Shown: positions 15,063-55,775 of the stretch, one piece after another
Numbering within the stretch: position 1 is the first letter of the stretch
Layout: each line of letters opens with the position of its first letter
Position numbers and translations under genes: made by a program
Source: a virus
Strand: one strand, 5' to 3'
Length of the DNA stretch: 64,000 nucleotides
IMG/VR virus record: IMGVR_UViG_3300044700_000345
Location: 16,983 to 80,982 of that record
The notes under the pieces: model-generated
Database searches by the model: none
What the model was told of the DNA's origin: nothing
Seen by the model: only the letters and a program-made list of their open reading frames with translations

Positions 15063-15608
15063 TTACGAATAATAAGGTCGAGATTGGAATTGTGCTATTG
15101 ACAAAGGTTGAATTGTTGAGGGATTGATGCTGTTAATGGCCGTAAGGCCACTTTGCCGATTCCTTTCAATTGTGTCCCAGGAGGGTCCCCCAAGTGCAGT
15201 GGATAAGGTTGAGCCAAGTTTTCCAATGGAGTTCATTAACAATGCCTGTCCAGAACTCTGCCTGCCTAATTCTTGACGATAGTCTGCTTGTCTTTTTTGC
15301 ATTGCTTCTACATCACCTAGCTGTTCTTTGAATCCGCCTTTATCCGCGTAGCCTGGTGTCTTTGGACCTTTAATTGCATTTACTAATGCAAAGTTGCTAA
15401 TAGCATTTGAATCAAGTTTGATTCCATGTTTTTTGGCAGTTTTAAAAAAATTGTCTAGACCATCAAAACTTTCATCTTGCTCTCCAAGAACAGAAGACAA
15501 GCTTTTACTTAAATCACCAGTATTTAAGTACTCACCAAAAGGAATGCTTTTAATTTTTTCAGCATTAGCCCAATCAACATTAGACCAGTCAACATTTGCC
15601 ATGATCAA
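15063..15608 (-). CDS. Putative internal virion protein
   Basis: 181-aa ORF coupled in late operon. Confidence 0.55.
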   Translation of the reverse strand: MIMANVDWSNVDWANAEKIKSIPFGEYLNTGDLSKSLSSVLGEQDESFDGLDNFFKTAKKHGIKLDSNAISNFALVNAIKGPKTPGYADKGGFKEQLGDVEAMQKRQADYRQELGRQSSGQALLMNSIGKLGSTLSTALGGPSWDTIERNRQSGLTAINSINPSTIQPLSIAQFQSRPYYS

Positions 15609-52052: not shown

Positions 52053-52610
52053 ATGCAAAGCACTGGTTACCAACAGATGCCTTCAGTTCCTGTGATGCAA
52101 GTAGAGCAGCTGTTGCCGCAAGCACAGGATAAACCTAAGGCTCCCGCTAAGTCAAAAGCTGGTGGTGATGTTGGTGCATTTATTCAGCAATTGATTGGGC
52201 TGTCTGCTTACGTTAAAGAACTTGAAACTCAATCTCATTTGATCCATTTAAACATAGAGTGTGCAAACTTCCTCAGTATCCATGCATTTTTAAAAGATCA
52301 ATACGAAGCACACCTAGAACAATTTGATACCATCGGTGAGTTTGTTAGGTCAATGGATTATCTTATGCCACTTTGTGGTTGCAAGTTAAAAGATATGGCG
52401 CCTCCCATGCAAGAAGTTACTTCTTACGAATGGAAAGGAATGCTTGGAGTGTACTATAAAAACCTAGAAGATCTTGGCATGCAAGCCAAAAAGTTAGAAG
52501 GCATGGCCCAAAAAGTACATGCTATTGACATCCAAAACTACATGGCTGATCTTGTGGGTCAAGCATTTAAATCCGCTTGGTTTGTTAAATCAATTTTGCG
52601 GCATCCTTAA
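52053..52610 (+). CDS. dps: Dps/ferritin-like protein
   Basis: 'HLIHLNI...FLSIH...QYE...D.IGE..R' ferroxidase pattern; C-terminal 'KSAWFV'. Confidence 0.8.
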   Translation: MQSTGYQQMPSVPVMQVEQLLPQAQDKPKAPAKSKAGGDVGAFIQQLIGLSAYVKELETQSHLIHLNIECANFLSIHAFLKDQYEAHLEQFDTIGEFVRSMDYLMPLCGCKLKDMAPPMQEVTSYEWKGMLGVYYKNLEDLGMQAKKLEGMAQKVHAIDIQNYMADLVGQAFKSAWFVKSILRHP

Positions 52611-53046
52611 GATAAGTAATTGCAGATTCAAAAAACTTAATATTATCGTTAAGCATTCCTAGCGCAGTGTTGCATTTTTTGCATAACAATCCCCGAACTG
52701 CATTTGTTTTGTGACAATGATCAACAGATAAACTTTGCCCGGATACACATTTTTTTTCACAAATTTTGCACGTTCTATTTTGTTGGTTAAACATATCTAG
52801 ATACATTTCAGGAGTCACCCCATATCTTTTAATCCACCTGGCGTGTTTTTTCTTGTCATCCAATTTGTTCCAGTGTTTTAAACTAGCTTTTCTGTAAATT
52901 TCAGGATTTTTTTTGCGATACTCTGCAGTAATTTGACCAACGCATGTTTTGCATTTAGCTTGCTTGCCATCCTTAACTCTTGATTCAGCGTAAAATTCTG
53001 AAAGATTTTTAAGTTGTTTGCATACAGTGCAGGTTTTCGAAATCAT
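52585..53046 (-). CDS. Endonuclease VII-like HNH homing endonuclease
   Basis: 'CKIC...LSVDHCH...VRGLLCKKCNTALG'. Confidence 0.9.
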   Translation of the reverse strand: MISKTCTVCKQLKNLSEFYAESRVKDGKQAKCKTCVGQITAEYRKKNPEIYRKASLKHWNKLDDKKKHARWIKRYGVTPEMYLDMFNQQNRTCKICEKKCVSGQSLSVDHCHKTNAVRGLLCKKCNTALGMLNDNIKFFESAITYLKDAAKLI

Positions 53047-53200: not shown

Positions 53201-53935
53201 TTAAGATTCGAGGCCTGCGAGATCCCCCTCGTTACCAATTTTCATTTTTGTGTGTTTTTGCGATTCACTGAAAAAACGTTGCCACGCCTCTGATGGTGGT
53301 TTAAGTGAAGAGATAAGAGTTGTTTCGTACAAGAAGTGATTGGACGTTTCAATCATACGTGAATTTTCAACACTGTACTCAGTCAGGTCAATCTCGTAAC
53401 CGGGATTTTTTTCAATCCTGTTCTTAAGCCAGGCATCATCGTACCAAATGATTCGGTTGTTGGGGTAGGCGTAGAAATTGCCATCATCCATTCGGAAAAA
53501 GTGCGCACATTTGTGCTCAGGTGTCTCACTGAAATTGGTATTAAGAATTGACTTGGATTCCCAGGACCAATCCATTGTGAACATATAGATGCCACCATTC
53601 TTTTCACCTTTGAAATTGATTAATTGTGCACGTAAATTTGAAAGGCGTGCCCTGACTTGTACATCAATATACGGAGAGAAACAATCCCACCACATACAAT
53701 CATTTAGTTCTGGCTTAGGTGCATCTGGTTTCCAGCAAAGAGCATGGATGGGACGCCTTGTCCAGTTGACACCATTCTCCAGGAACACTTCAAACAGTGG
53801 TACGTGTTTCTCTAGGGATGCAACAGAATGTACGTCACATAACGTTACATCACCGTGCCCTTGCTTGTGGTTGTATAGGAATTCGTTTCGGATGTAGCAA
53901 GTAAATGTAGGTAGGTTGTGATTTAAATAGCTCAT
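53201..53935 (-). CDS. Conserved phage hypothetical protein
   Basis: 'YIRNEFLY...WWDCFS...EHKCAH...AYPNNRI'. Confidence 0.7.
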   Translation of the reverse strand: MSYLNHNLPTFTCYIRNEFLYNHKQGHGDVTLCDVHSVASLEKHVPLFEVFLENGVNWTRRPIHALCWKPDAPKPELNDCMWWDCFSPYIDVQVRARLSNLRAQLINFKGEKNGGIYMFTMDWSWESKSILNTNFSETPEHKCAHFFRMDDGNFYAYPNNRIIWYDDAWLKNRIEKNPGYEIDLTEYSVENSRMIETSNHFLYETTLISSLKPPSEAWQRFFSESQKHTKMKIGNEGDLAGLES

Positions 53936-53993
53936 TTGATTTGCTGGTGTCTGCTCACTATAAAGTATCTAGCAGGCTACAGGGATATAAGAG

Positions 53994-54203
53994 CTACTTA
54001 TCTTTGTGCCGCTTAGCTGCACGGGCTGCCTTGCCTGCTTTCTTTGCTGTCTCTGTGTTAGGTACAAATTGTTTTCCTTGTTTGCTGCCAGTGCGTTTCT
54101 TTTGGTCGGTCTCTTCTCTTTCCTCTTTGGATAGAGAAGCCCACGCTTTTTCGGGCAGGTAACGTTTTGTGTATCCGTCTTGGATTGCTTTATCACTTGC
54201 CAT
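53994..54203 (-). CDS. DUF5872-like C-terminal half (small basic protein)
   Basis: 'RYLPEKAWASLS...KKRTGSKQGKQFVPNT'. Confidence 0.65.
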   Translation of the reverse strand: MASDKAIQDGYTKRYLPEKAWASLSKEEREETDQKKRTGSKQGKQFVPNTETAKKAGKAARAAKRHKDK

Positions 54204-54500
54204 CTTGATATCTCTTGGCTGCTGATTTAGCTTTAGAACGTTTTTCGTATTCGTCTTTGGTTTGCCACTTTTCTTTGTCCCATTTTTCTAGTGATTTTTG
54301 CCCCTCACCTTTGCCACCTTTATATCCTCCACCGGCTTCTTTGTATTCTTGTGCTACGAGTTGAGCCTTGCGGGCCGAATTAGTTAGCCTCCCGGCTACG
54401 ACCATTCTCCTGGTTTACCACCACGGCTTTCACGCATTACACGATTTTTAATGCGTTCCCGCAATTCAGGTTTTGTGTACTTGGTTTTATCTTCAGCCAT
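54193..54500 (-). CDS. DUF5872-like N-terminal protein interrupted by a 23-nt insert (54376-54398); 94 aa if bypassed
   Basis: MAEDKTKYTKPELRERIK...GGKPGEWS [TAG...TCG] ARKAQLVAQEYKEAGGGYKG...; GAGG SD upstream. Confidence 0.75.
54376..54401 (-). other. Candidate translational-bypass (byp-like) element
   Basis: TCG|TAGCC-GGGA-GGCTA-ACTAAT|TCG: matched codons, stop, GNRA hairpin, GGAGG 9 nt before the second TCG. Confidence 0.55.
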
Positions 54501-55101
54501 AGCTTCCTCGTTGTTTAAGGTAAAGAACTGCACTTGTCAGTACTTCTATATTATCACCGAACAAGCCCAAGGCCCTGTTGCATTCTTTGCAAAGCAAGCC
54601 ACGGAACTCGTTTGTTGCGTGATTGTGGTCCATTGCTAGATCGTGGGTGTCTTTAGGCGGGCTTTTGCAAATAGCGCATTTACCTTCTTGCACTTTAAAC
54701 ACCTGTTCATATTGTTCTTTTGTAATTCCTCTGCGTTCATATTTTTTACAAGAATGGTGCAACTTGTTTTGACCTTGTTTCTTAACCGCAAGGTAATGTT
54801 CTTTATTGTTTTCTACCCATTTGTCCCATTTGATTTTGTTACATGATTTACATGAAGAATGTAAATATAAGTTGCCATCCTGTTTTCTTCTTCTAAAGCA
54901 ATCCCAATTCAAATAGTGAGCACATTTAGAACATTGTTTTTGACCCTCGGCTCCATATAAAAGTTTGAAGCGGCAATTTACCAAGGACCTGCAATCTTTG
55001 CAAACACTGTCTCTTTTTGTATTGCCAGCTGAAGTGTGCCCTTTGTTGTGAAAATTTTCATGTAGTTTTCTGATTCCGCACTCACGGCAGAGTTTTTGCA
55101 T
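54493..55101 (-). CDS. Endonuclease VII-like HNH homing endonuclease with two N-terminal Zn fingers
   Basis: 'CAIC...LAMDHNH...FRGLLCKECNRALG'. Confidence 0.9.
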   Translation of the reverse strand: MQKLCRECGIRKLHENFHNKGHTSAGNTKRDSVCKDCRSLVNCRFKLLYGAEGQKQCSKCAHYLNWDCFRRRKQDGNLYLHSSCKSCNKIKWDKWVENNKEHYLAVKKQGQNKLHHSCKKYERRGITKEQYEQVFKVQEGKCAICKSPPKDTHDLAMDHNHATNEFRGLLCKECNRALGLFGDNIEVLTSAVLYLKQRGSYG

Positions 55102-55108
55102 TGGGTTG

Positions 55109-55135
55109 TCTGTGCTTTTCTTACAATAGCACAGA
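55109..55135 (-). promoter_or_regulatory. Hairpin/promoter in front of the HNH gene, derived from target-gene sequence
   Basis: TCTGTGCT/AGCACAGA 8-bp stem containing a TGcTATTGT extended -10 and remnant codons AGA AAA GCA CAG (RKAQ). Confidence 0.55.
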
Positions 55136-55136
55136 A

Positions 55137-55235
55137 TTATTGACCCGGCTTACCCACCTTAGATCCTGCCATCACGCGATCTTTAATGTTCTCGCGTACT
55201 TCAGGCTTAGTGTATTTAGTCTTTTCCTCTGACAT
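55137..55235 (-). pseudogene. Truncated 5' duplicate of the DUF5872-like gene
   Basis: MSEEKTKYTKPEVRENIKDRVMAGSKVGKPGQ* vs MAEDKTKYTKPELRERIKNRVMRESRGGKPGEW. Confidence 0.8.
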
Positions 55236-55489
55236 TATTTATACAACCCCATTCGACGAGCTTCGTCAAGTGTTCCCGGAGCAGTTGCTCCTGCATTTAT
55301 TGTTGTAAGACCAACAGCAGGTAAAGATAAATAAGGTGTTCCAAATAAATACCCGGCAACTTGATTTACTGGGTCTTGGGTTGAAGATGCAAAACCATGC
55401 CCTAAACCAATTTTAGCTGCTTCATTTAGTCCCCCTGGGATAGGTCCAGGTTGACGCATAAATTTGCCGGCTAATTGAAATAGATTCAT
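55235..55489 (-). CDS. LAGKF-motif protein
   Basis: MNLFQLAGKFM...; TAAAAT box upstream. Confidence 0.55.
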   Translation of the reverse strand: MNLFQLAGKFMRQPGPIPGGLNEAAKIGLGHGFASSTQDPVNQVAGYLFGTPYLSLPAVGLTTINAGATAPGTLDEARRMGLYK

Positions 55490-55538
55490 TTTGAAATTAT
55501 TTCTTTCTTTTATTTTACTTGGTATTGTCGTTACATAA

Positions 55539-55775
55539 TCAACGCTCCTGGAATCGAACCAGGTAATGTAAACCCTTGTCGGGTTGCCTTATCCTTTCGG
55601 CCTAGCGCTGAGGTGTGGGTCCCATCCCCACTGGATCCATCAATGAGGCTAATGGATGCAACCCCTCCGTATCAGCCGGATGGCACGCCGGATAGATGAC
55701 TTCCAGTTCAGGATGAATCGGGTGTGTCGCCTTTTAAACTATGTGTCTAACGCGCACAGGGACCCGATCTCTATC
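55539..55775 (-). ncRNA. Structured ncRNA ending in a tRNA-like domain (55540-55610)
   Basis: Acceptor CAGCGCT/AGCGTTG, D-arm GCC/GGC with GG, T-arm CCTGG-TTCGATT-CCAGG, aberrant anticodon arm; several upstream helices; TGtTAGAAT box at about 55782-55790. Confidence 0.6.

What the first reader, a model, noticed from the sequence alone, without database searches (positions are those of the whole stretch)
54193..55235. Homing endonuclease plus 23-nt ribosomal-bypass-like insert: a candidate new T4 mobA/gene 60-type mobile cassette
Seen: a gene starting at 54500 reads MAEDKTKYTKPELRERIKNRVMRESRGGKPGEWS and hits TAG. The family motif WSARKAQ (DUF5872-like) resumes 23 nt later in another frame. 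The insert reads TCG|TAGCC-GGGA-GGCTA-ACTAAT|TCG|GCC-CGC-AAG. It has matching take-off and landing codons, a stop immediately after take-off inside a GNRA-capped hairpin, and an SD-like GGAGG 9 nt before the landing codon. Directly upstream is an EndoVII-type HNH gene, preceded by a dead 5' duplicate of the same gene that stops at the same Trp position. Known: T4 gene 60 bypassing uses matched codons, UAG, a stem-loop and a mini-SD, and its gap protects the site from the adjacent homing endonuclease MobA. Inference: this HNH cuts uninterrupted WSARKAQ alleles, the insert gives immunity, and ribosomes hop it to make a 94-aa protein. Alternatives: a -1 frameshift, or re-initiation at the in-frame ATG at 54405 (MVVAGRLTNS...).
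Basis: partly seen in the sequence, partly recalled or inferred. Interest (0 to 1): 0.92.

Follow-up and report, generated by a model that had tools for sequence, protein, structure and literature searches.

The report
Homing-nuclease cassette with ribosome-hop gap
A selfish nuclease gene has inserted into a small conserved gene of a lake cyanophage, bringing a new gene start and 20 untranslatable bases that ribosomes most likely hop over, as in the famous phage T4 gene 60 case but in another gene and with an unrelated nuclease.

Summary
On the minus strand lie: the resident gene's 5' end (55235-55137, 32 codons, stopped where Trp33 should be); an EndoVII-type HNH gene (55101-54493); a replacement 5' part (54500-54399) ending in TCG-TAG; a 20-nt gap with a TAGCC-GGGA-GGCTA hairpin; a second TCG (54378-54376); and the rest of the DUF5872-like gene.

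I found 108 loci with such a gap in IMG/VR and metagenomes. Gaps are 20, 21, 24, 26, 29 or 30 nt. Among 73 distinct versions the take-off codon is always TCG, followed by TAG; landing is TCG in 68, TCT in 3 and TCA in 2.

Ten of 57 distinct versions are out of frame and 47 are in frame with 2-4 stops. No frameshift or read-through fits all, and an upstream ATG/GTG fits only 2.

Both halves evolve like working genes (pN/pS 0.13 and 0.18). The gap changes far more slowly than silent sites and persists where the nuclease was deleted.

The stem letters equal those of T4 gene 60; the nuclease is unrelated to MobA.

Programmed bypassing is the best reading (about 0.7) but is unproven. This scan noted the same cassette family before on other DNA. 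The one comparative study I read reports such cassettes only in topoisomerase genes.

The parts
55137..55235 (-). Resident gene's own 5' end. It has 32 codons (MSEEK...GKPGQ) and is closed by TAA at the place of Trp33. It is the left homology arm of the insertion, not a copy made by the cassette.
   Evidence: the ORF listing. Aligned 80.8% to the 5' part of the insert-free relative L014 up to the T of the Trp codon. The same break is seen in L107 vs L020 and L178 vs L018.
54376..55138 (-). The mobile cassette as mapped against insert-free relatives: leader with hairpin, HNH gene, replacement 5' part, coding gap and landing codon.
   Evidence: Breakpoints come from the window vs L014 and from near-identical pairs (flanks 95-97%): L107/L020 and L178/L018. 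In L107/L020 the element replaces the last G of the Trp codon plus the native AGT Ser codon.
55111..55133 (-). Inverted repeat TGTGCT...AGCACA just upstream of the HNH start. It is conserved at the left end of the cassette.
   Evidence: Read. It is conserved in the other cassette loci that keep the resident 5' end. Its function was not tested.
54493..55101 (-). HNH endonuclease of the Endonuclease VII type (202 aa), the presumed homing enzyme. Its stop overlaps the ATG of the replacement 5' part.
   Evidence: PF02945 E 3e-21. Full-length homologues of 72-87% identity lie directly upstream of the gap in 76 of 108 gap-bearing loci. No similarity to MobA (BLASTP E 0.33).
54399..54500 (-). Cassette-borne replacement 5' part of the gene (34 codons, MAEDK...GEWS), preceded by GAGGA 5 nt upstream. 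It ends in the take-off codon TCG (54401-54399).
   Evidence: There are 29 distinct protein versions among the loci, none with a stop. pN/pS is 0.126 over 68 distinct sequences.
54379..54398 (-). 20-nt coding gap: TAG stop (54398-54396); hairpin TAGCC-GGGA-GGCTA (54398-54385); GGAGG (54392-54388); A/T-rich tail ACTAAT.
   Evidence: The hairpin appears in every fold tried. Homologous gaps are 20-30 nt long. The gap varies far less than third codon positions beside it.
54376..54378 (-). Landing codon TCG (Ser34), delivered by the cassette.
   Evidence: Landing is TCG in 68, TCT in 3 and TCA in 2 of 73 distinct versions. Insert-free alleles use TCG in only 3 of 50. In L107 it replaces the AGT of its near-identical insert-free relative L020.
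54193..54375 (-). Resident 3' part of the gene (ARKAQ...QDGK plus stop).
   Evidence: 88% identical to L014. pN/pS is 0.183 over 68 distinct sequences. No internal stop or frameshift in 108 loci.

Best explanation
This is a homing-endonuclease cassette inserted at codons 33-34 (Trp-Ser) of a small DUF5872-like gene of an S-EIVl-like freshwater cyanophage. The cassette is about 760 bp. It truncates the resident 5' end and supplies an EndoVII-type HNH nuclease and a full replacement 5' part with its own ribosome-binding site. Between that part and the resident 3' part it supplies a 20-nt non-coding gap.

Shown here: the anatomy; the exact breakpoints against insert-free relatives; the tight linkage of gap and nuclease; the persistence of the gap after nuclease loss; purifying selection on both halves; and strong conservation of the gap.

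Inferred: (1) The nuclease cuts insert-free alleles near the Trp-Ser codons. Both copies of that site in the cassette-bearing genome are broken, the left by truncation and the right by the gap, so the carrier is immune. (2) The gene still yields one 94-aa protein. A ribosome carrying peptidyl-tRNA-Ser on UCG meets UAG inside a UAGCC-GNRA-GGCUA hairpin. The tRNA unpairs, the ribosome slides 20 nt over an A/U-rich stretch, the tRNA re-pairs with the next UCG, and decoding resumes at GCC (Ala35). This is the mechanism established for T4 gene 60, with a shorter gap and a different codon.
For: (a) 73 distinct versions of the gap have lengths 20 (3), 21 (27), 24 (33), 26 (2), 29 (7) and 30 (1). All have take-off TCG followed by TAG. 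Landing is TCG in 68, TCT in 3 and TCA in 2, and never AGY or TCC. Insert-free alleles use TCT 20, TCA 10, AGT 10, TCC 4, AGC 3 and TCG 3 of 50.
(b) A codon-to-codon hop restores the family's invariant W33-S34-A35-R36 in every version. Ten of 57 distinct versions are out of frame and 47 are in frame with 2-4 stops of up to three kinds. No single frameshift, read-through or stop reassignment fits.
(c) None of 108 loci has a stop or frameshift in either half. 87 are complete, 12 are cut by contig ends, and 9 belong to relatives with a shorter or fused C-terminus.
(d) pN/pS is 0.126 (5') and 0.183 (3') over 68 distinct sequences. Insert-free alleles give 0.139 and 0.111 over 19.
(e) In the 24-nt class the gap differs at 0.014 per site, against 0.175 and 0.468 at third codon positions of the flanks.
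(f) The loop varies only among GTAA, GTGA, GGGA, GCAA, GAGA and TTAG on an unchanged stem in 65 of 68.
(g) The gap is kept where the HNH is reduced to remnants of different length or is gone. This holds for 13 loci with at least 788 nt upstream and no HNH, and 4 with remnants.
(h) The T4 gene 60 gap read from AF158101 starts TAGCC-TTCG-GGCTA right after its take-off codon and ends ATTATT before landing. The 24-nt class here starts TAGCC-GTAA-GGCTA and also ends ATTATT.
(i) Manning and Atkins (bioRxiv 10.1101/2022.08.31.505936; Results and one Discussion subsection read) report the same rules for gene-60 homologues. These are: wobble-matched codons; mostly UAG after take-off; UUCG, GNRA or UUAG loops; an A/U-rich 3' part; a 20-nt gap in one clade; and nuclease loss with the bypass retained.
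(j) A contig from an RNA library carries the gap unspliced.
Against: There is no protein, ribosome-profiling or reporter evidence, so the hop is an inference. The stem never varies, so there is no compensatory change. Two of 68 distinct versions (the L085 type) have no such hairpin, and one has a broken closing pair. Folding energies of the region are not better than shuffles (z -0.17 to -1.45). The SD-like GAGG/AAGG lies 9-19 nt before landing, not the 5-7 nt reported for gene-60 homologues. In 45 of 57 distinct versions an in-frame ATT or ATA lies 3-6 nt before the landing codon, behind those purines. Independent initiation of the 3' part is therefore not excluded there. Homing keeps joining the cassette to fresh, working 3' parts, so some of the 3' conservation may be inherited rather than maintained. 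The take-off codon is invariant and the landing codon travels with the cassette, so matching could partly reflect common descent. The RNA-library contig may derive from contaminating DNA.
Confidence: 0.72

Rival explanations
1. Split gene. The gap ends translation of a 34-aa N-terminal peptide. The 60-aa C-terminal part is started independently within the gap, at ATG/GTG in the 20-nt class or at ATT/ATA elsewhere, using the GAGG/AAGG purines as a Shine-Dalgarno. The two pieces work together or alone.
For: The window has an open ATG frame from 54405, which gene callers used for 70-71-aa products. 45 of 57 distinct versions have an in-frame ATT or ATA 3-6 nt before the landing codon. The preprint's Discussion notes that homing-endonuclease insertions split other phage genes, such as Topo2L and nrdA, into two working proteins.
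Against: 10 of 57 distinct versions have no start or near-cognate codon between the last stop and the landing codon. Only 2 have a canonical one. This reading gives no reason for the duplicated Ser codon that the cassette brings in place of a native AGT. It also gives no reason for the invariant TCG-TAG take-off, or for a hairpin whose stem letters equal those of T4 gene 60. The break falls between invariant residues S34 and A35.
Confidence: 0.12
2. Tolerated knock-out. The gap simply kills a dispensable gene. The halves look intact because cassettes are young and homing keeps pairing them with fresh 3' parts.
For: One decayed copy exists (L065/L115), with indels on both sides and no HNH. Pairs with 95-97% identical flanks, one with the cassette and one without, show recent mobility.
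Against: None of 108 loci has a stop or frameshift in either half. The cassette-borne 5' part, which cannot be refreshed from resident genes, has pS 0.51 with pN/pS 0.126. Within the 24-nt class it has pS 0.31 with pN/pS 0.013. Lineages that lost the HNH in at least six different ways still keep the gap and both halves. The gap itself is conserved far beyond silent sites.
Confidence: 0.08
3. Removal at the RNA level.
For: Precise removal between the repeated TCG codons would also restore the frame in every version. Contigs cannot exclude a minor spliced form.
Against: No Rfam family, and no group I or II intron, matches 53900-55600 even at E up to 10. No cutting register gives both a U before the 5' cut and a G as the last excised base, and the TCT/TCA landing versions fit even less. 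I read this from the letters; the group I rule itself is recalled. The RNA-library contig carries the gap intact. No joint was reported in any of the 4 runs laid.
Confidence: 0.05

Closest known systems
Phage T4 gene 39 / mobA / gene 60 element with its 50-nt translational bypass, and its homologues in topoisomerase genes of T4-like phages (Manning and Atkins, bioRxiv 10.1101/2022.08.31.505936; Results and one Discussion subsection read). The primary T4 papers are recalled only.
   Same: A homing endonuclease inserted inside a gene. The cassette supplies a new start and a homologous replacement of the target region, followed by a non-coding gap. Take-off and landing codons are matched. UAG follows take-off directly. 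The hairpin begins with UAG, has the stem letters UAGCC/GGCUA and a stable tetraloop. The 3' part is A/U-rich and ends ATTATT in one class. The landing codon travels with the element. The nuclease is often lost while the gap stays.
   Different: The target is a 94-aa DUF5872-like gene, not Topo2L. The nuclease is of the Endonuclease VII type, with no similarity to MobA (E 0.33). The take-off codon is UCG (Ser), not Gly or Asp codons. The gap is 20-30 nt, not 50. The stem has 5 pairs and does not include the take-off codon. The SD-like purines are 9-19 nt from landing. The upstream fragment is only 32 codons and gets no added tail. The host phages are freshwater cyanophage-like.
Mitochondrial 'byp' elements of Magnusiomyces (recalled; only a search listing of a 2026 paper that mentions them was seen)
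   Same: Short non-coding inserts of tens of nucleotides within coding sequences, with matched take-off and landing codons.
   Different: They occur in yeast mitochondria, with many insertions per genome and no linked homing endonuclease cassette. No sequence comparison was made here.
Candidate UUA-induced bypassing in Streptomyces phage terminase genes (Antonov et al. 2023, PMC10732093; abstract and outline read)
   Same: A proposed natural bypass in a phage gene other than T4 gene 60.
   Different: It is proposed to be triggered by a rare UUA codon as a sensor of the host's state. No homing endonuclease or stop-plus-hairpin take-off is mentioned in the abstract.
Free-standing homing endonucleases that split phage genes without a bypass (MobE in nrdA of phage Aeh1, as described in the preprint's Discussion)
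   Same: Endonuclease insertion within an ORF, with cassette-encoded termini that keep the gene usable.
   Different: Those yield two proteins that assemble. Here a one-codon duplication with a stop-initiated gap points to one continuous protein.

Membership tests
T4 gene 60-type programmed translational bypass | Matched take-off and landing codons readable by one tRNA | tested here: met
   TCG/TCG in the window. 73 of 73 distinct versions have TCG take-off; landing is TCG 68, TCT 3, TCA 2. That one tRNA-Ser can read UCG, UCU and UCA is recalled, not tested.
T4 gene 60-type programmed translational bypass | [quoted passage not shown] | tested here: met
   TAG in all 73 distinct versions, though the search pattern required TAG. 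A scan for TAA/TGA at that place in IMG/VR gave 6 hits, none of this family.
T4 gene 60-type programmed translational bypass | Stem-loop at the take-off site | tested here: inconclusive
   A 5-bp UAGCC/GGCUA stem with a GNRA or UUAG loop occurs in 65 of 68 distinct versions and in every fold, with the same stem letters as T4. There is no compensatory change. Two versions lack the stem. Fold energies are not better than shuffles. The take-off codon is outside the stem.
T4 gene 60-type programmed translational bypass | SD-like sequence 5-7 nt 5' of the landing codon | tested here: not met
   GAGG/AAGG/AGGG lie 9-19 nt before the landing codon, depending on gap length; 3 of 68 have none. The stretch in between is A/U-rich, as in T4.
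T4 gene 60-type programmed translational bypass | Nascent-peptide signal in the cassette-encoded N-terminal part | not testable with these tools
   The cassette's 5' part differs from resident ones at fixed places (D19N; AGSK to RE[G/S]R; Q32E). It is under strong constraint, with pN/pS 0.013 in the 24-nt class. This is suggestive only.
T4 gene 60-type programmed translational bypass | One continuous protein is made across the gap | not testable with these tools
   It is inferred from conservation only. The RNA-library contig shows the gap present in that library.
MobA mobile element (Topo2L-specific) | MobA-family endonuclease | tested here: not met
   BLASTP of the window's HNH against the intact endonuclease of Salmonella phage pSe_SNUABM_01, which lies next to a gene-60 gap, gave E 0.33. 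That protein has no PF02945 hit.
MobA mobile element (Topo2L-specific) | Insertion in the topoisomerase II large-subunit gene | tested here: not met
   The target is a 94-aa DUF5872-like gene.
Homing endonuclease cassette (free-standing, intron-less) | Presence/absence polymorphism at one site among close relatives, with clean breakpoints | tested here: met
   L107 vs L020 and L178 vs L018 have flanks 95-97% identical, and the element replaces 4 nt at the Trp-Ser codons. The window vs L014 agrees.
Homing endonuclease cassette (free-standing, intron-less) | The nuclease cleaves insert-free alleles and spares its own | not testable with these tools
   Only the linkage was tested: 6 of 7 gap alleles against 0 of 71 uninterrupted alleles have the HNH upstream.
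Pfam PF02945 Endonuclease_7 (His-Me finger / HNH) | Profile match above the curated cut-off | tested here: met
   75.6 bits against a 23.6 cut-off, residues 122-196.
Pfam PF19197 DUF5872 | Profile match above the curated cut-off | tested here: inconclusive
   The 70-aa downstream ORF scores 22.2 against a 27.5 cut-off. Uninterrupted relatives of 85-95% identity carry precomputed PF19197 hits. The fused product was not scanned because I did not build it.
Group I / II self-splicing intron | Ribozyme core, or splice-site rule | tested here: not met
   There is no Rfam match at E up to 10 in 53900-55600. 20-30 nt is too short for a core. No register gives both a U before the 5' cut and a G as the last excised base (letters; rule recalled).
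Programmed -1 ribosomal frameshift | One frame change at a slippery site explains all relatives | tested here: not met
   47 of 57 distinct versions need no net frame change but contain 2-4 stops. I saw no X XXY YYZ heptamer before the stop in the window (read).

The most novel reading that the evidence does not exclude
The stop-plus-hairpin coding gap is a portable RNA device. It consists of UAG, a UAGCC-tetraloop-GGCUA hairpin, an A/U-rich run and a repeated codon. It shares ancestry with the T4 gene 60 gap and has moved between unrelated homing endonucleases (MobA, GIY-YIG, VSR, and here EndoVII-type) and between unrelated genes. If so, translational bypassing would be a general, reusable way for selfish nucleases to break their own target site without breaking the protein. 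The 20-30-nt forms found here would then be close to a minimal working bypass signal, with over 60 natural variants ready for testing.
Probability: 0.3. Interest if true: 0.92.

Novelty: new variant of a known kind. Interest (0 to 1): 0.85.

Why it matters
Efficient programmed bypassing of tens of nucleotides is known in bacteria and phages essentially from one case, T4 gene 60. The only broad comparative study I could read found its relatives exclusively in topoisomerase genes and called the cassette unique.

A second family would show that the solution is general rather than a one-off. It differs in gene, nuclease and take-off codon, and its gaps are 20-30 nt. It would also supply natural experiments on gap length, loop type, landing-codon wobble and loss of the hairpin. 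These bear directly on open questions about what makes a ribosome take off, slide and land.

It matters for annotation too. Gene callers split or mis-start this gene.

A cultured relative, Synechococcus phage S-EIVl, carries an uninterrupted allele and no nuclease. Homing and immunity could therefore be tested at the bench.

Tried and rejected
- **Phage-collection searches.** A DNA search of the locus found nothing. tblastn of the 3' part also found nothing at E 1e-3, yet a local tblastn without the low-complexity filter found the gene in S-EIVl. The blank was therefore a filter effect.
- **Group I intron.** Rejected (splice-rule reading).
- **-1 frameshift, read-through or stop reassignment.** Rejected on the mix of frames and stops. 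The window holds only a tRNA-Leu(TAA).
- **Initiation at ATG 54405.** It holds only for the 20-nt class.
- **Target-site duplication as the source of the repeated TCG.** Rejected. The left TCG lies in the cassette's own 5' part, and the right one replaces a native AGT.
- **Uninterrupted proteins with the cassette-type N-terminus.** A search with the 45-aa ORF (lengths 'longer') listed 15 proteins. None of the 7 I fetched was such a protein. The search is weak, so this does not show absence.
- **Structure.** An AlphaFold model of an uninterrupted relative had mean pLDDT 64.7. That is too low for a fold search, so none was run. It only hints that the break lies just before helix 35-47.
- **Promoter and terminator scan.** It gave no promoter-like site, and terminator-like sites at the chance level.
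- **Coverage holes.** In run X11 no listed contig covers 54386-54411. Runs X12 and X20 leave parts of the stretch uncovered. Such holes prove nothing.
- **Pairing of the take-off flank with the landing flank.** The window's MFE fold pairs GGUCG with CGGCC. It is not better than shuffles, and I do not build on it.
- **Supplements.** Its text says all are in Topo2L.
- **Literature.** Five full-text searches gave no paper describing a bypass cassette in a DUF5872 gene or with an EndoVII-type nuclease. The library lacks most subscription journals.
Full report
**What is there.**
All features lie on the minus strand.
- The ORF 55235-55137 reads MSEEKTKYTKPEVRENIKDRVMAGSKVGKPGQ and stops at TAA.
- After a 35-nt leader with an inverted repeat (55133-55111) comes a 202-aa ORF (55101-54493). 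It matches Pfam Endonuclease_7 at E 3e-21.
- Its stop overlaps the ATG (54500) of a 34-codon ORF, MAEDKTKYTKPELRERIKNRVMRESRGGKPGEWS. That ORF ends TCG TAG.
- Then follow TAGCC-GGGA-GGCTA-ACTAAT, a second TCG (54378-54376), and GCC CGC AAG... (ARKAQ...) running to the stop at 54193.
- The 70-aa ORF that gene callers would take from ATG 54405 matches DUF5872 weakly (22.2 bits against a 27.5 cut-off).
- The window is from a tailed phage with terminase, family A DNA polymerase and primase. Its nearest cultured relative in the collection is Synechococcus phage S-EIVl, from a high-arctic lake. The 785-aa virion protein is 78.9% identical.
- Sequencing runs that hold the stretch are labelled freshwater or freshwater sediment.

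**The gene and its uninterrupted form.**
- A protein search gave 618 relatives. Most listed ones are 93-95 aa and read straight through ...GGKPGQWSARKAQ...
- Nine of the 22 I fetched are 70-71-aa ORFs that start MVVA[G/V]RL[T/F]NSARKAQ. These are translations of the same gap in other assemblies.
- In an alignment of 34 uninterrupted relatives, W33, S34, A35 and R36 are invariant.
- S-EIVl has an uninterrupted 94-codon allele (15196-15477) and no such HNH in the first 40 kb of its record, the part I fetched.

**How many gaps, and what they look like.**
- Pattern and protein scans of IMG/VR and one pattern scan of metagenome contigs gave 108 loci with a gap followed by the ARKAQ frame.
- The pattern also hit 40 other distinct contexts. 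Most are unrelated DNA. One is a decayed family copy (L065/L115), and one (L208) is a family copy cut by a contig end.
- Among 73 distinct family versions, the stretch between the two Ser codons is 20 nt (3), 21 (27), 24 (33), 26 (2), 29 (7) or 30 (1).
- The take-off codon is TCG in all 73. TAG follows it in all; the pattern required TAG. A scan for TAA/TGA found no family member.
- The landing codon is TCG in 68, TCT in 3 and TCA in 2.
- Insert-free alleles use TCT 20, TCA 10, AGT 10, TCC 4, AGC 3 and TCG 3 of 50 distinct contexts.
- Among 68 distinct full sequences the stem is TAGCC/GGCTA in 65. The loop is GTAA 32, GTGA 23, TTAG 6, GGGA 3, GCAA 1 or GAGA 1. Two (the L085 type) have an A/T-rich replacement without that hairpin, and one has a broken closing pair.

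**Why frameshifting, read-through and restart do not explain it.**
- Of 57 distinct versions (60 nt upstream, the gap and the landing codon), 10 are out of frame. The other 47 are in frame but contain 2-4 stops, often TAG, TGA and TAA together.
- A canonical start codon in the landing frame after the last stop exists in only 2 of the 57, the window's 20-nt class.
- 45 have only ATT or ATA 3-6 nt before the landing codon, and 10 have nothing.
- A hop from the first Ser codon to the second restores WSARKAQ in every version.

**The gene behaves as a working gene.**
- None of the 108 loci has a stop or frameshift in either half. 87 are complete, 12 are cut by contig ends, and 9 belong to relatives whose 3' ORF is shorter or fused to the next gene.
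- Over 68 distinct sequences, pN/pS is 0.126 for the cassette-borne 5' part (pS 0.51) and 0.183 for the 3' part.
- 19 distinct insert-free alleles give 0.139 and 0.111.
- The gap is conserved as nucleotides. In the 24-nt class there are 0.014 differences per site, against 0.175 and 0.468 at third codon positions on either side. In the 21-nt class the figures are 0.110 against 0.331 and 0.487.

**The cassette and its mobility.**
- The closest insert-free relative of the window, L014, aligns up to the T of the Trp33 codon on the left. It aligns again from shortly after the landing codon on the right.
- Two pairs with 95-97% identical flanks give clean breakpoints.
- In L107 vs L020 the element replaces the last G of TGG plus the native AGT Ser codon, and identity resumes at the Ala codon. 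The landing TCG therefore comes with the element.
- In L178 vs L018 the converted tract runs 9 nt further.
- The upstream 32-codon ORF is thus the resident gene's own start, and the copy next to the gap is the imported one.
- In the unbiased set of 80 IMG/VR relatives, 6 of 7 gap-bearing alleles have the HNH directly upstream; the seventh, L065, is decayed. None of the 71 uninterrupted alleles with at least 700 nt upstream has it (p 2.7e-8).
- Over all 108 gap-bearing loci, 76 have a full HNH.
  - 10 have a partial one. Four of these have ample upstream sequence and are real remnants; six lie at or near contig ends.
  - 22 have none. Nine of these have under 110 nt upstream; 13 have at least 788 nt.
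- The HNH-less loci show at least six different deletion end-points or none at all. They keep the gap and both halves.

**Comparison with T4.**
- The gene 60 region read from AF158101 shows take-off GGA, then TAGCC-TTCG-GGCTA, then an A/U-rich stretch ending ATTATT, then landing GGA.
- The stem letters are the same as here, and the 24-nt class also ends ATTATT. This could reflect shared ancestry. It could also be the simplest way to put UAG into a short G/C-tipped hairpin; I cannot tell which.
- The T4 stem is longer and includes the take-off codon, and it folds better than shuffles (z -1.8). The regions here do not (z -0.17 to -1.45).
- The window's HNH shows no similarity to an intact gene-60-linked endonuclease (E 0.33).
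- Manning and Atkins describe dozens of gene-60-type cassettes, all in Topo2L. Their rules are the ones found here:
  - codons matched, or differing at an allowed wobble;
  - mostly UAG after take-off;
  - UUCG, GNRA or UUAG loops;
  - an A/U-rich 3' part;
  - a 20-nt gap in one clade;
  - a cassette-encoded N-terminal part with a homologous replacement region;
  - an end at or just after the landing codon;
  - frequent loss of the nuclease with the bypass kept.
- They place a mini-SD 5-7 nt before landing. Here the only purine-rich stretch is the 3' arm of the hairpin, 9-19 nt away.

**RNA.**
A contig of a metatranscriptome library covers 54282-54507 with the gap and without any difference. 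No joint was reported in the four runs laid. This argues against efficient RNA-level removal. It is weak evidence, because contigs drop rare forms and DNA can be present in such libraries. No Rfam family matches the locus.

**Verdict.**
The most likely mechanism has two parts. First, the EndoVII-type HNH homes into the Trp33-Ser34 site of insert-free alleles. Second, the gap keeps the reconstituted site uncuttable, while ribosomes hop from UCG to UCG to make the 94-aa protein.

The anatomy, linkage, mobility, selection and gap conservation are shown. Cleavage specificity and the hop are inferred. I put the hop at about 0.72, a split gene with separate initiation at 0.12, a tolerated knock-out at 0.08 and RNA-level removal at 0.05.

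Earlier notes of this scan describe the same cassette family on other DNA; I did not rely on them. In the searchable literature I found no description of a bypass cassette outside topoisomerase genes of this kind. The supplements of the key preprint were not available to me.

Noticed in passing
window 53994-54203 (-) with 54193-54500 (-): The gap-bearing gene and the next 69-aa ORF (MASDKAIQDGYTKRYLPEKAW...) correspond to the N- and C-terminal parts of longer single-chain DUF5872 proteins of 126-184 aa. Here they are two ORFs that overlap by a few bases. In L139 they are fused in frame. S-EIVl has an extra gene between them.
   Followed up: partly
window 55235-55489 (-): An 84-aa ORF directly upstream of the resident gene start has no counterpart in the closest relative L014, whose alignment jumps from 55494 to 55237. 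It has no Pfam or PHROG match. It may be another small insertion.
   Followed up: no
window 52585-53046 (-): A second Endonuclease_7-type HNH gene (153 aa, E 3.7e-24). It is 36% identical to the cassette's HNH over residues 55-196. No TAGCC-N4-GGCTA motif lies near it.
   Followed up: partly
It has no Pfam match at E 0.001.
   Followed up: partly
window 55111-55133 (-): The inverted repeat TGTGCT...AGCACA between the truncated resident start and the HNH ATG is conserved in the cassette loci that keep the resident 5' end. L029 and L181 have other hairpins at this place. It may control nuclease expression; this was not tested.
   Followed up: partly
L065 / L115 (IMGVR_UViG_3300049043_000164): A decayed copy of the cassette allele. 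It has the gap with a mutated stem, indels in both halves, and no HNH. It is the only broken copy seen.
   Followed up: partly
L230 (KJ410740) 15196-15477: In Synechococcus phage S-EIVl the gene is annotated from an internal ATG (15259-15480, 73 aa). tblastn shows the full 94 codons from 15196.
   Followed up: yes
window 54366-54412 (-): In the minimum-energy fold the take-off flank GGUCG pairs with the landing flank CGGCC around the small hairpin. Four of the five pairs follow from using UCG at both Ser codons. The fold is not better than shuffles.
   Followed up: partly
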